A stretch of 64,000 nucleotides of DNA from assembly GCA_039621445.1 (NCBI GenBank), contig CP154954.1, positions 21,004,642-21,068,641 of the forward strand. The letters run 5' to 3'. The notes beneath the pieces were generated by a model. That model was not told the DNA's origin. It searched no databases and saw nothing but the letters and a program-made list of their open reading frames with translations. This document shows positions 6,170 to 9,100 of the stretch, one piece after another (position 1 is the first letter of the stretch; every line of letters begins with the position of its first letter). The translations under genes and the position numbers were made by a program. Source of the DNA: Euglena gracilis. Taxonomy: Eukaryota.

Positions 6170-9100
6170 GGCCAGTTGCAGGCCCCTGCTCGGAGGCCAC
6201 CTCCCTCACCTTGCGTGTGCATGTGCGCATGCCATTATGTGTGTTTGCGTGTGTGCACGCGCGCGTGTGCATGCAAGCGTGCGTGCGTGCGTGTGTGTCT
6301 GTGTGCGCGAGCACGTGTGTAAACACGCACACATTCTATAATTCAGGCACTGCTTTCCACCATCTCTGAAACATAATGGACCGTTGCTCTCTTTCTAACC
6401 GTGCATCTATCTGTCCATTGAAAACTGGGCAATAACCGCCAGCCACACCTCAATGGAAATTTTATTTTGGGGAGGGAAAAAAGCAATTTTCTGTTTGTGC
6501 GTGCACGTTTGGACCCCCCCTCCCAAGAAGGGGTAATGACGAGGGTCTGTGCAACCAAACCAGAGACTTGTGGGGTGGGTGTAGGCGGGTTTTGGTCGAT
6601 GGAAGAGTGCTCACTCCCCTGGTTGAGACATTGTGCCCAGTGGGAGAAACGTCTTACCAAGGTTTGATGTATGGCTGTAAGGAGCGTACGGGGCACAGGT
6701 CGGGGGGTGCCCCCCCCCTGCTGGATGAGAGGGGGGGTCCTCTCCTCCCCCACCCGCCAGGTGGGGTCCGGGCCGACCCTGGGAGGTGGCGGACCAGGAC
6801 CCTCCCCAACAAAAGGTCAATTTGTTCAAAAAGGTCAAATATCAAATATCAAATATCAACATTTTTTTCTGGAGCAATTTTTTTCCCATTTTGACAAACT
6901 TTTGCCCAAAAATTGTCCAAAAGGGCGCTTTTTGTCGTTTTGGGTGGGCAAAAGTTTTCGGCCACCTCGACCGCACCACTGTTTAGGTTGGGGGGGGGGG
7001 TGCCCCCCACGCCCCCTCCTCGCGGACTGGAGCCCCCCCCACCTGCCCTGACATCGAACCTTGCCTCCCACCCCTGCGTGACCCAGGAGGTGGGCTCCGT
7101 GGCACCTCAGGCCCCTCCTTCCACGCCGCCGACGACCCCATCACCCTACCCTGAGGGTTCCTCAAAGCCCCCCCCCCCCACAGCTTTTTCTCCCTTTGCA
7201 TCCAGCCATTCAACTCAAACAACTGGGTGTGCGCCACACAGCTGGGTAAGGCTATTTGTCGATGACAGTCATTAGATCTTTAAGGGGGGAATTGAACAAC
7301 CGCAATTTTGTCGCAATTTCCCACAATTTTCTGCTTCCACAATTCTCCGTTTTCTGCAATTTCCGCAAGTTTTCAGAATTTTCCACAGTTTTTTCCCTTT
7401 CTGCAATTTCTCCGCATAACCAGATTTTACCTGATACCAAGGTTTTCATGAGTTTTTTTTTTGCCATTTTTGATTTTTCACTGAAAAAATTCCATATTTC
7501 CATCCTCAGATTGTTTCCAAAAATTTACGAAAAAGCATGCTTTTCAATCTTCTTTTTGGAAACAATGTGAATAGCGGCTCAAAATTGACGTTATGTTGCA
7601 AATTGACCAAATTTGTGAAATCTAATTCTTCTCCGGCAGAGGTGCACTAATTTCCAAAGCCGCATTTTTCACAATTTTCTGAAAATTTTCTGCAATTTCC
7701 GTAATTTTTCCACAATTTTTCCGCAATTTTTTTTTGAAGGGATTGTATGGCAATTCCCCCTTCCCAGGTGCCTTGGCAAGCCACGGAAGTTGCCCATCGA
7801 TGCGGAGGAGAACCACCGCTTTGTCTCCCCAACAGGTTGGGTTGGCTTTCGATCAGCCCCCCCCCCACCTCGGCCCATCCCTGATTCCAAGGGCCCCCGG
7901 ACCCGACGGAGGAGCAGCGGGAGGAGGTGGAGGCGCTGCAGTCCATCCTGGAGGACGACTTCGACTTCACGGAGGCGGCGGCGCTGCTGGTGCTGACCGT
8001 CCGGGCCCCTGGCACGCGCAGGGCTGTACGGGAATCCCGGCAACGCCATGGGTGGTGGGTGGGGGGTAGACCCCCCCCCACACCCATCCCATGGGGATCC
8101 GACCCCCCCACCACCACGCCTTTCTATTTCTGGCGGCGCCGAGTTTTTTTTGGCCAAACGTTTCTTTGAGCGAGCGCCGTTGCGCTGAAGGAGTTTTCTT
8201 TGCGTGGGTGCCGTGGCGGGTGAGTGGGTGTCCCAATGAGATGCACACCAGTCTGTTCTTTTGTTCAGGAAACCCCGAGGGAGAAGAGGGGACTCTTTGT
8301 GCTGTTGGGTCCCCACCAGGGGACATTTTGAGTCCCGGTGCAGAATGCCACCCAAGTGGCCACCTTCGAGTTCTTGAGAATGGCCATTTTCTGGCCGTTG
8401 CCGCTGTCGGCGCGAATTATGGCGCGAAATGGAGTGCCATTTTTCCGGGCCTTCCCAGGCAGCCCTGGGCCCGCGGGTCAAGCTGTTGGTGCGATACACG
8501 CAGCATTACCCGGCGGAGCCCCCGAAGCTGGCGGTGCAGCGCCTCGAGGCGGGGCGGGCTGGGCGGGGAGGGCCCGGGGGGAAGGGCATTTGGTGAAGAG
8601 CTGCTTGGGTGGTCCCTGGCGAAGTAGTCGGCCAGACACCCTGCGTTTATGTGTTTTTGTGTTTTTGTGTTTGTGTTTGTGTGTTTGTGGTAATGTTTTG
8701 CGTTAATGTGTAATGTGTTTTTGGTGTTAATGGTTGTGTCTTTTTAGGGTCGAAACAGGATTGGGTGGGGCTTATTCCACCCAATCCGAGAAGGCAGAGG
8801 TGGAGTCGGTGGAGAAGAAACCAAAATGCATGAATAAAGTAATGATAGTTAATTAACGTTGATTAAATAATATTAATTGATACTTTATGACAGGCACAGC
8901 AGGTTAATAAAAAAATGATACAGAACAAAAGTAGAGCTCACTAAGGTTTTTGACCGGGAAAGATCAGTTTGGGTGTGGACAGGGGGAAACACAAATGCAA
9001 CTGCGTTTTTTTTGCGATTTTTTTTACGTCTTGCGCTTTAGGCAAAATTTGCCTTTGTTTTGGCAAAATTTGTTGTTTTTTTTGGTATTTTTTTGGATTT

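What the first reader, a model, noticed from the sequence alone, without database searches (positions are those of the whole stretch)
8011..8475. Non-conventional intron geometry equals a hAT-like MITE plus one 8-bp TSD: a candidate intron-generating system
Seen: about 20 in-frame junctions here lack GT-AG and read exon|NNN-CAG...CTG-NNNNN|exon, so 3+5=8 nt lie outside the paired CAG/CTG. Seen: young MITEs in the same window (29290-29737, 32029-32453, 43314-43595, 45158-45440) start with CAG, end with CTG and have 8-bp TSDs. Known: 8-bp TSDs with short TIRs typify hAT transposons, and a transposon origin for euglenid non-conventional introns has been suggested in general terms. Inference: cutting both TSD copies at the 5|3 position removes the element plus exactly one TSD and restores the exon with no scar. 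As predicted, some introns keep the duplication: 8016-8472 GGCAC|GCG vs GGCCC|GCG (7/8), 33860-34204 GCTGC|GGG vs GCTGC|GAG (7/8), 46335-46808 CCCGT|GCC vs CCCCC|GCC (6/8), 4563-5568 GCCAC|AGC vs GCTGC|AGC (6/8, with 6-nt spacing), 28225-28874 (5/8). Others show no trace (e.g. 11825-12194, 40464-41059), as expected for old insertions.
Basis: partly seen in the sequence, partly recalled or inferred. Interest (0 to 1): 0.92.

Follow-up and report, generated by a model that had tools for sequence, protein, structure and literature searches.

The report
Euglena odd intron is a transposon copy
The intron at 8016-8472 is a copy of a small inverted-repeat mobile element still flanked by its 8-base target duplication, and the known cutting register of this odd intron type removes the element plus exactly one duplicate, which gives sequence-level support to a published idea about where these introns come from.

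Summary
8016-8472 is a non-GT-AG intron (GCG-CAG...CTG-GGCCC) in a + strand RWD/kinase (GCN2-like) gene. Its flanking 8-mers match 7/8. The four named MITEs have CAG/CTG ends and 8-bp TSDs (8/8, 7/8, 8/8, 8/8).

"About 20 junctions" could not be checked. I examined ten, seven of them reader-picked.

New here: the focal intron belongs to a dispersed family (F) with a 20-bp TIR, distinct left and right ends, and at least four full copies plus fragments in the window. Some copies are intron-shaped (33860-34204, 46947-47144, perhaps 18935-19137). Others lie inside conventional introns. F shares a subterminal G-rich motif with the young MITEs.

Already published: the 3-nt and 5-nt spacers (tested experimentally), the MITE-origin hypothesis (2013) and "TSD-like" repeats (2024). 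I found no paper giving the 3+5 = 8 = Ac-like TSD argument or naming an intron-forming family.

hAT membership is untested because no transposase could be searched. All well-supported F pieces lie in the sense orientation, which is unexplained and keeps an RNA-mediated rival alive.

Verdict: real, interpretation partly supported, incremental novelty.

The parts
8016..8472 (+). Focal non-conventional intron (457 nt) = family-F element plus 8 nt (3-nt 5' spacer GCG, 5-nt 3' spacer GGCCC)
   Evidence: the frame is restored by removing 457 nt; the terminal helix CAG:CUG has 9 contiguous pairs in the MFE fold. No RNA was laid here.
8019..8467 (+). Family-F element (449 bp); TIRs at 8019-8038 and 8448-8467
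   Evidence: both ends match the 20-mer TIR with 3 mismatches; 5 hits against 0.03 expected; first ~65 nt homologous to 43975-44044, 46950-47015 and 18938-18974
8011..8018 (+). Left copy of the putative 8-bp target-site duplication (GGCACGCG)
   Evidence: 7/8 with 8468-8475
8468..8475 (+). Right copy of the putative target-site duplication (GGCCCGCG)
7885..8015 (+). Upstream exon (RWD domain, N-terminal part; reading frame open from 7885, true exon start not determined)
   Evidence: RWD profile 1-22, E 0.0025, below cut-off; GC3 0.98
8473..8550 (+). Downstream exon (RWD continued; 3' end approximate)
   Evidence: RWD profile 32-72, E 0.0018, below cut-off
33860..34204 (+). Non-conventional intron with a family-F right end (34180-34199, 1 mismatch to the TIR) and a partly F-like left end; flank 8-mers 7/8
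   Evidence: junction by frame only
46947..47144 (+).
   Evidence: no RNA
18938..19132 (+). F copy (195 bp, left end CATAG); possible intron 18935-19137 just upstream of the kinase-start exon; flanks 6/8 but C-rich
   Evidence: the upstream exon is not established
43975..44243 (+). F copy (269 bp) with a degenerate right terminus, flanked by poly-G on both sides, in non-coding sequence between MITEs (not an intron boundary)
39386..39618 (+). Two F right-end fragments (39386-39432, 39568-39618) in non-coding sequence downstream of exon 38626-38780
   Evidence: E 4.9e-5 and 3.7e-7
49259..49318 (+). F left-end fragment
   Evidence: E 4.2e-6
29290..29737 (+). MITE M1: TIR CAGGGGTTTTCTT..., TSD GGCGTGGC 8/8; nested in conventional intron 28989-30190
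32029..32453 (+). MITE M2: TSD GCCCCCAC/GCTCCCAC 7/8; an older relative lies at 44740-45075
43314..43595 (+). MITE M3: TSD ATACAAAC 8/8; subterminal GGGTGGGTGGGGGG..ACCCCC motif shared with F
45158..45440 (+). MITE M4: 74% identical to M3, TSD GTTGAAAC 8/8, same subterminal motif
28225..28874 (+). RNA-supported non-conventional intron, GCC-CAG...CTG-CCCCC
   Evidence: table 8 (transcript contig pieces; the 112 nt between them fits exon 28875-28988); the DNA contig of run X1 spans it unspliced
30347..30909 (+). RNA-supported non-conventional intron, AAG-CAG...CTG-GCAAC
30986..31538 (+). RNA-supported non-conventional intron with 3+5 spacing around a 16-bp stem that has no CAG/CTG
38176..38625 (+). 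RNA-supported non-conventional intron, GCC-CAG...CTG-GCCCC

Best explanation
The window is euglenid nuclear DNA. It carries one long + strand gene for an RWD-plus-protein-kinase (GCN2-like) protein.

The feature at 8011-8475 is a non-conventional intron that began as an insertion of a non-autonomous, terminal-inverted-repeat DNA element (family F, TIR about CAGGGCTGTGCGGGAAGGCC) into the coding exon. The insertion duplicated 8 bp of target.

The euglenid non-conventional splicing machinery recognises the paired CAG/CUG termini. It cuts 3 nt upstream of CAG and 5 nt downstream of CUG, and these distances are established experimentally in print. Because 3+5 equals the 8-bp duplication, the RNA loses the element plus exactly one duplicate, and the original reading frame is restored without a scar.

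Shown here: the anatomy, family membership, the 7/8 duplicate, frame restoration, and the same register in four RNA-supported introns of the same gene.

Inferred: insertion at the DNA level, an Ac/hAT-like transposase, and that the match of 3+5 to the TSD length is why such insertions are tolerated and became so numerous.
For: - Anatomy and the 7/8 duplicate at 8011-8018 / 8468-8475.
- Frame restoration and the order of the RWD pieces.
- The terminal CAG:CUG helix is present in the MFE fold for 8 of 10 introns and 4 of 4 MITEs.
- Family F: the 20-mer TIR has 5 hits with <=3 mismatches against 0.03 expected, and 0 of 100 shuffles reach 5. One hit is the pattern's own source.
- F copies share internal homology over 60-70 nt.
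- Left ends consistently read GGGAATC.. and right ends GGGAAGGCC.
- nhmmer finds further pieces at 49259 (E 4e-6), 39568 (4e-7) and 39386 (5e-5).
- Copies occur both as intron-shaped units and inside non-coding sequence.
- Spacers differ between copies (GCG/GGG/GAT; GGCCC/GCTGC/TCACC) but match their own exon flanks. This is expected of target duplications, not of sequence carried with the element.
- Co-resident MITEs have the same CAG...CTG ends and 8-bp TSDs. Among 151 CAG..CTG pairs with TIR >=10/12, 4 have TSD >=7/8, against 0 and 2 of 151 in offset controls.
- M3 and M4 share the subterminal GGGTGGGTGGGGGG..ACCCCC motif with F.
- The 3+5 register fits spliced contig arithmetic at 28225-28874, 30347-30909, 30986-31538 and 38176-38625.
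- In print: 3-nt and 5-nt spacers tested by knock-in (PMC12501133, section 8 read); Ac/Ds has 5' C/TAGGGATGAAA ends, an 8-bp TSD and subterminal binding repeats (PMC3260210, passages).
Against: - No RNA was laid on the focal intron or on any other F-family intron. Their junctions rest on frame only.
- F copies are only about 70-80% alike. The TSDs of three of five are in poly-C, poly-G or C-rich sequence and prove little.
- The four RNA-supported introns show 5, 3, 5, 3 of 8, not clearly above the cross-pair level of 3.08.
- Part of the flank identity is a shared C|purine cut-site consensus.
- The abundant young MITEs are not seen acting as introns in this window.
- 8 of 8 well-supported F pieces lie in the sense orientation, which random cut-and-paste insertion does not predict.
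- No transposase and no empty-site allele were seen.
- The 47k copy starts CAA and the 19k copy CAT instead of CAG.
Confidence: 0.7

Rival explanations
1. RNA-mediated spread. Excised non-conventional introns, reported in print to form full-length circles, re-enter transcripts by reverse splicing or are reverse-transcribed and integrated. The family is then an intron family rather than a DNA transposon, and the flank repeats reflect site preference or staggered integration.
For: 8 of 8 well-supported F pieces are in the sense orientation of the gene, including pieces that lie inside conventional introns where splicing cannot select orientation. By hand, P is about 0.004 for all-sense. M3-type (3 of 3) and M2-type (2 of 2) copies are also all in + orientation. 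Circular excision is cited in PMC11282704 and PMC12501133 (passages).
Against: Spacers are not carried between copies. They match the local exon instead. Perfect 8-bp TSDs on the related young MITEs in plainly non-coding AT-rich or microsatellite flanks are the hallmark of DNA transposition. All pieces come from one 64-kb window, much of it apparently one + strand gene, so the orientation count is not a genome-wide sample.
Confidence: 0.15
2. Same elements, opposite direction of adaptation. The non-conventional splicing system with its 3+5 offsets came first. Ac-like MITEs whose CAG...CTG ends and 8-bp TSD happen to fit it were the ones that could settle in exons (pre-adaptation or mimicry). 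The machinery was not tuned to the transposon.
For: CAGGG ends and 8-bp TSDs are ancestral hAT features in plants (PMC3260210 passages), so they need not have evolved in euglenids. One RNA-supported intron (30986-31538) keeps the 3+5 geometry around a stem with no CAG/CTG, so the machinery reads a helix rather than a transposon end as such.
Against: Nothing in the window bears on the order of events. Diplonemids are also reported to have non-canonical introns with inverted G/C-rich ends (PMC12621601, passage), which would allow either order.
Confidence: 0.3
3. No transposon ancestry. The similar intron ends are convergent splice signals, and the flank repeats are chance plus a common cut-site consensus.
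For: Six of the ten introns start CAGGG, five of them CAGGGC. Cross-pair flank identity is already raised to 3.08/8. The RNA-supported introns are not above it. 84% of all introns, conventional ones included, are 'slidable' in E. agilis (PMC12501133, section 5 read).
Against: Homology extends 60-70 nt inward, with end-specific left and right sequences. Copies and fragments lie where no splicing signal is needed. The published cis-code needs only CAG/CTG, adjacent pairing and spacers. Two 7/8 matches are unlikely under the cross-pair null (hand estimate P about 0.008 for 20 introns).
Confidence: 0.07

Closest known systems
Euglenid non-conventional introns (Milanowski et al. 2014, PMC3935182; review PMC11282704; E. 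agilis/E. gracilis knock-in study PMC12501133)
   Same: No GT-AG; CAG at +4..+6 and CTG at -8..-6; ends paired in RNA; 3-nt and 5-nt spacers; short direct repeats at the junctions. The MITE origin is already proposed, and the repeats are already called 'TSD-like'.
   Different: In the passages and sections I read, none of these papers states a TSD length, a transposon superfamily, the 3+5 = 8 argument, or a named repeat family whose copies are introns. PMC3935182 says no transposable element had then been identified in euglenids.
Ac/Ds and other hAT non-autonomous elements (PMC3260210, passages)
   Same: 8-bp TSD of arbitrary sequence; termini beginning C/TAGGG; short non-coding derivatives sharing only the TIRs and subterminal repeats; many copies near or in genes.
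   Different: No hAT transposase was seen or could be searched. The subterminal motif here is G-rich (GGGTGGGTGGGGGG..ACCCCC), not AAACGG. Removal from RNA here is by non-spliceosomal cuts outside the element, not by cryptic GT-AG sites inside it, as I recall for Ds. That Ds case is Giroux 1994, which I saw only as a reference in PMC3935182.
Introners: transposon-derived spliceosomal introns of Micromonas, dinoflagellates and others (as summarised in PMC11282704, passages)
   Same: TIR/TSD elements that become introns on insertion, with the TSD contributing to exact restoration of the exon.
   Different: Introners are removed by the spliceosome and carry or create GT/AG-type sites. Here the borders are non-canonical and the excision machinery is unknown.
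Bulge-helix-bulge introns cut by tRNA-splicing endonuclease (recalled; cited only in reference lists I saw)
   Same: Cuts at fixed distances from a helix; circular intron product.
   Different: Offsets of 3 and 5 nt outside a long helix are not the 3-4-3 BHB geometry. No enzyme is identified for euglenids.

Membership tests
Euglenid non-conventional intron | Borders are not GT/GC-AG | tested here: met
   The intron starts GC(G) and ends CC in the 3+5 register. None of the five equivalent registers (-1..+3) gives GT...AG.
Euglenid non-conventional intron | CAG at +4..+6 and CTG at -8..-6 (3-nt and 5-nt spacers) | tested here: met
   CAG at 8019-8021, CTG at 8465-8467. The rule is as in PMC12501133, section 8.
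Euglenid non-conventional intron | The intron ends pair in RNA next to CAG/CTG | tested here: met
   The MFE fold has 9 contiguous pairs starting at CAG:CUG.
Euglenid non-conventional intron | Absent from the mature mRNA at that exact junction | tested here: inconclusive
   Frame and RWD order fit, but the only read-laying run covered 23100-43000, not this intron.
Euglenid non-conventional intron | Excised as a circular RNA after the conventional introns | not testable with these tools
   Needs RNase R or divergent RT-PCR data.
hAT-superfamily non-autonomous element (MITE) | 8-bp target-site duplication directly abutting the termini | tested here: met
   M1-M4 give 8/8, 7/8, 8/8, 8/8. The focal F copy gives 7/8 and the 34k copy 7/8. 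Other F copies lie in low-complexity flanks.
hAT-superfamily non-autonomous element (MITE) | Short TIRs beginning C/TAGGG-like (Ac type) | tested here: met
   CAGGGG in M1, M3 and M4; CAGGC in M2; CAGGGC in F. The Ac ends are as in PMC3260210.
hAT-superfamily non-autonomous element (MITE) | Mobilised by a hAT (BED / RNase-H-like / hAT-dimerisation) transposase with matching TIRs | not testable with these tools
   No genome is held for this window. No transposase search was run on the window's reading frames.
hAT-superfamily non-autonomous element (MITE) | Weak target consensus nTnnnnAn (recalled from memory, not from a call) | tested here: inconclusive
   Fits ATACAAAC and GTTGAAAC, but not GGCGTGGC or GCCCCCAC. 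The sample is four sites.
hAT-superfamily non-autonomous element (MITE) | Multiple dispersed copies | tested here: met
   F has 4 full copies plus at least 4 fragments in 64 kb. Bins holding M1 and M2 have depth thousands of times that of neighbouring bins in a DNA run. The tool warns that depth is not a copy number.
Introner (transposon-derived spliceosomal intron) | Removed by the spliceosome at GT/GC-AG-type sites supplied by the element and TSD | tested here: not met
   The borders are non-canonical. It works like an introner in restoring the exon via the TSD, but it is not a member.

The most novel reading that the evidence does not exclude
Euglenid non-conventional splicing is a scarless RNA-level excision system matched to Ac-like MITEs. 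Its two cut offsets (3 nt before CAG, 5 nt after CUG) sum to the 8-bp target duplication. Any such element landing in an exon is therefore silently removed together with one duplicate, which allowed these elements to become the majority intron class. A corollary is that the excised circle should carry a rebuilt 8-mer target at its joint. The unknown excision factor might descend from, or co-evolve with, the transposon's own end-binding machinery.
Probability: 0.4. Interest if true: 0.85.

Novelty: new variant of a known kind. Interest (0 to 1): 0.66.

Why it matters
The origin and excision mechanism of euglenid non-conventional introns have been open since the 1990s. These introns are reported as about 72% of introns in E. 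agilis. The MITE idea has so far rested on inverted repeats and vague 'TSD-like' repeats.

A concrete family whose copies are both introns and ordinary insertions, plus the numerical match between the experimentally fixed 3+5 spacers and an 8-bp TSD, turns the idea into sharp genome-wide predictions:
- sliding should be bounded by -5..+3;
- non-genic copies should have 8-bp TSDs;
- empty sites should carry one 8-mer.

It also suggests a direct bench test with the existing knock-in assay. If it holds, it explains why exon insertions are tolerated and how an intron class can expand massively without the spliceosome.

Tried and rejected
- Whole genome: none is held for this window, so no genome-wide register statistics, MITE library or transposase search were possible.
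- RNA holders: one search listed no holder on record as RNA. Six rows were only guessed to be RNA.
The second stretch (23100-43000) was laid, but its joint table was filled by repeat-derived joints of the DNA run, with 1021 joints not shown. Only the contig-piece table was usable, and neither the focal intron nor the 43-48 kb region was covered.
- Protein search with exon 28048-28224, longer proteins: 12 candidates, none scored. No transcript-derived protein was available to fix exons.
- Metagenome scan for the F right end: 62 loci, and 0 of 62 have the F subterminal signature. These are chance matches.
- Earlier findings of this scan: three look-ups, nothing.
- Structure-plus-GC3 scans for all non-conventional introns gave 652 candidates and an unmanageable list. 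They were too unspecific in this GC-rich DNA and were dropped, so no unbiased intron set was obtained.
- Strand-specific GC3 to map genes on the - strand was uninformative, because it mirrors the + exons.
- I first misread intron 28225-28874 as ending at 28877 (note).
- Pfam on ten further exon frames: only 2 of 10 gave weak Pkinase pieces below the cut-off. The HisRS-like part of a GCN2 is not shown.
- Seven literature searches found no paper linking the spacers to an 8-bp TSD or to hAT. One search was badly aimed and returned nothing relevant.
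Full report
What the window is. The DNA is about 54% G+C with long poly-C and poly-G runs and many microsatellites. On the + strand, a chain of short, very GC3-rich open segments (GC3 0.79-0.98 in six checked exons) encodes several recognisable pieces:
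- RWD-domain pieces at 7885-8015 and 8473-8550 (Pfam RWD profile 1-22 and 32-72, E 0.0025 and 0.0018, both below Pfam's cut-off).
- Protein-kinase pieces in order at 21455-21607 and 27612-27743 (2 of 10 frames tested, below cut-off).
- Kinase-like peptides at 19138-19330, 22901-23104 and 27347-27562.

I read this as one long GCN2-like gene running from about 7.9 kb to at least 47 kb. The HisRS-like part is not shown. The intron type points to a euglenid. This is an inference, because the organism is coded in the tools.

The focal feature. The sequence reads exon ...GGCAC | GCG CAG(8019) ... CTG(8467) GGCCC | GCG... exon.
- The 8-mers 8011-8018 and 8468-8475 match 7/8, and the junction can slide -1..+3.
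- Removing 457 nt connects the frame ending ...RAPGT with the frame beginning RVKLLVRY..., in keeping with the RWD profile order.
- In an RNA fold the ends form a helix of 9 contiguous pairs starting at CAG:CUG.
- No RNA was laid on this intron.

The MITEs. All four are as described:
- 29290-29737: TSD GGCGTGGC on both sides.
- 32029-32453: TSD GCCCCCAC/GCTCCCAC.
- 43314-43595: TSD ATACAAAC on both sides.
- 45158-45440: TSD GTTGAAAC on both sides.

All have CAG...CTG termini and TIRs of 11-12 matches in 12. Among 151 CAG..CTG pairs in the window with a TIR of at least 10/12, these are the only 4 with a flanking 8-mer identity of 7 or 8. The same pairs scored 0 and 2 of 151 when the 8-mers were taken 10 or 20 nt further out. 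M3 and M4 are 74% alike. An older relative of M2 lies at 44740-45075, and a half-copy of the M3 type lies at 37892-37975. In a DNA run, the bins holding M1 and M2 have depths thousands of times those of single-copy bins. The tool warns that depth is not a copy number.

RNA evidence. Only one read-laying run was available. Two runs guessed to be RNA contain contigs whose pieces skip introns, so they are spliced transcripts.
- One contig of 1029 nt covers 28066-28223, 30188-30345 and 31538-31757, with 112 and 76 unlisted nt between.
- Another of 1512 nt covers 36692-36860 and 38625-38778, with 134 nt between.
- The same pieces appear in both runs.
- The aligner places ambiguous bases consistently to the left. 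This shows at 36860 and 31757, which sit one and two bases short of GT donors.

With the sequence, the only exon set that fits all lengths is 28066-28224, 28875-28988, 30191-30346, 30910-30985, 31539-31759, then 36694-36861 (or from 36692), 38042-38175 and 38626 onward. That gives four non-conventional introns in the 3+5 register:
- 28225-28874: GCC-CAG...CTG-CCCCC.
- 30347-30909: AAG-CAG...CTG-GCAAC.
- 38176-38625: GCC-CAG...CTG-GCCCC.
- 30986-31538: the same spacing surrounds a 16-bp stem without CAG/CTG.

The DNA contig of run X1 spans 28028-29064 unspliced, so removal is at the RNA level. It also gives conventional GT-AG introns at 28989-30190 (which holds MITE M1 nested) and from 36862 to 38041. 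The intron ending at 28065 has no AG, and no obvious CAG/CTG register. Its best duplex involves exon bases. Its 5' end is not fixed by my data.

Flank identity.
- The mean is 4.5, against 3.08 for the 90 cross-pairings of the same flanks.
- 37 of 100,000 permutations reach the observed sum.
- Shifting the right 8-mer by -4..+4 gives sums of 19-35 against 45 at zero.

Two cautions apply.
The four RNA-supported ones (5, 3, 5, 3) are not above the cross-pair level.
- Positions 5 and 6 match largely because both cut sites favour C|purine. This is also why cross-pairs score 3.08 rather than about 2.3.

Even so, by hand with p = 0.385 per position, two 7/8 matches among about 20 introns have P of about 0.008.

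The new result: a family. The focal intron's ends recur elsewhere in the window.
- The 20-mer CAGGGCTGTGCGGGAAGGCC is the reverse complement of 47120-47139. It has 5 matches with up to 3 mismatches against 0.03 expected, and none of 100 shuffles reached 5. The matches are both ends of the focal intron, the right end of intron 33860-34204 (1 mismatch), 39599-39618 and its own source.
- BLAST and alignment show homology for 60-70 nt inward, with end-specific sequence. Left ends read CAGGGC....CGGGAATC..AACAGCCAGGGTGGTGGGTGGGGGGTCGACCCCC. Right ends read ...GGGGGGTCGACCCCCCCACCAGGCCTTCCC.....GCCCTG.
- The full copies are 8019-8467, 18938-19132, 43975-44243 and 46950-47139.
- Profile searches add 49259-49318 (left end), and 39386-39432 and 39568-39615 (right ends).
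- The left ends of introns 33860-34204 and 40464-41059 resemble each other and the family by eye, but not significantly so.

What the copies are doing.
- The 46950-47139 copy lies in a poly-C tract (flanks CCCCCCCC on both sides).
- The 18938-19132 copy lies just before the kinase-start exon and may be an intron, but its upstream exon is uncertain.
- The 43975-44243 copy and the 39.4-39.6 kb fragments lie in non-coding sequence, and the 43975 copy has a decayed right terminus.

The family therefore exists independently of intron function. The spacers differ from copy to copy but resemble their own exon flanks, as target duplications should. A 13-mer from the subterminal region (GGTGGGTGGGGGG, up to 1 mismatch) occurs about 25-35 nt from the right termini of M3, M4 and the 37.9-kb half-copy, as well as in F copies. 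The intron-forming family and the young MITEs thus look related. As RNA with 3+5 flanks, all four MITEs fold with the CAG:CUG terminal helix. They meet the published cis-code of CAG/CTG, adjacent pairing and spacers.

An unexplained point. All 8 well-supported F pieces have the left end upstream on the + strand, which is the sense strand of the gene. Three weaker pieces seen by eye agree. M3-type (3 of 3) and M2-type (2 of 2) copies are also co-oriented. Random insertion would give this with P of about 0.004 for F (hand calculation). Selection for splicing cannot explain it for pieces inside conventional introns. This keeps an RNA-mediated route of spread open, although perfect TSDs in non-coding flanks argue for DNA transposition.

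What is known.
- PMC3935182 (2013; abstract and passages read) proposed MITE-like elements as the source, because of the inverted repeats. It noted direct repeats at most junctions, and said no transposon had yet been found in euglenids.
- PMC12501133 (2025; sections 5 and 8 and passages read) reports 71.8% non-conventional introns and 84.4% 'slidable' introns in E. agilis. It shows by knock-in that the donor spacer must be 3 nt and the acceptor spacer is best at 5 nt, and it again suspects MITE-like elements.
- PMC12621601 (passage) says the same for diplonemids.
- PMC3260210 (passages) gives the Ac/Ds hallmarks: C/TAGGGATGAAA ends, an 8-bp TSD and subterminal binding repeats.

In seven searches I found no paper that states a TSD length, a superfamily, the 3+5 = 8 argument, or an identified family. 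Supplements were closed. The sliding-distance figure and datasets of PMC12501133 may already contain the decisive distribution.

Mechanism. Most likely (0.7 for the focal intron), an Ac-like non-autonomous element inserted into the RWD exon with an 8-bp duplication. In the pre-mRNA the TIRs pair. The unknown non-conventional machinery cuts 3 nt before CAG and 5 nt after CUG, so element + 8 nt leave and the exon is restored.
- Shown: the anatomy, family membership, the duplication, frame restoration, and the same register in RNA-supported neighbours.
- Inferred: DNA-level insertion, the hAT affiliation, and that the sum of the offsets is matched to the TSD.

Whether the machinery adapted to the elements or the elements fitted an older machinery cannot be told from this window.

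Verdict. It is strengthened by family F, weakened in its statistics, and untested as to hAT. The novelty is incremental on a published hypothesis, but it makes that hypothesis sharply testable.

Noticed in passing
8019-8467, 18938-19132, 34180-34199, 39386-39618, 43975-44243, 46950-47139, 49259-49318: All 8 well-supported family-F pieces, and all M3-type (3) and M2-type (2) MITE copies, lie in the same orientation, which is the sense strand of the gene. This includes pieces inside conventional introns. Simple cut-and-paste insertion does not explain it.
   Followed up: partly
43548-43573, 45399-45425, 37927-37950, 19082, 47092, 44149, 8054: A G-rich, partly palindromic subterminal motif (GGGTGGGTGGGGGG, 0-4 nt, ACCCCC) sits about 25-35 nt from the termini of both the young CAGGGG MITEs and family F. 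It could be a shared transposase-binding site.
   Followed up: partly
27742-28065: The intron before exon 28066 begins with GT but ends CT, not AG, and shows no NNN-CAG...CTG-NNNNN register. Its best duplex pairs the 5' exon end with the intron's 3' end. It is possibly an 'intermediate' type. Its 5' junction is not fixed by the data I have.
   Followed up: partly
28989-30190 and 31760 onward: High-copy MITEs sit nested inside conventional GT-AG introns: M1 in 28989-30190, and M2 downstream of the GT at 31760. Whether they are first removed as non-conventional introns (twintron-like) is unknown.
   Followed up: no
23100-43000 (tables 3-4): The DNA run X1 differs from the window at many single bases and small indels (for example 12 differences in one 750-nt contig at 42033-42776). 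Other strains or alleles are therefore in public data and could show presence/absence of elements.
   Followed up: no
34027-34114 and 19442-19808: The interior of intron 33860-34204 holds a (TATGG)n-like array that is 77-81% similar to the long (TGGTG)n array at 19442-19808 in another intron.
   Followed up: no
36684-36693: The transcript piece starting at 36692 fits either a conventional AG acceptor (exon from 36694) or a non-conventional acceptor with CTG (36684-36686) plus a 5-nt spacer. The upstream exon was not listed, so the intron type is open.
   Followed up: no
whole window, + strand exons: Exons have extreme third-position G+C (0.79-0.98), against about 0.55 elsewhere. This is a usable exon signal in this genome.
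   Followed up: partly
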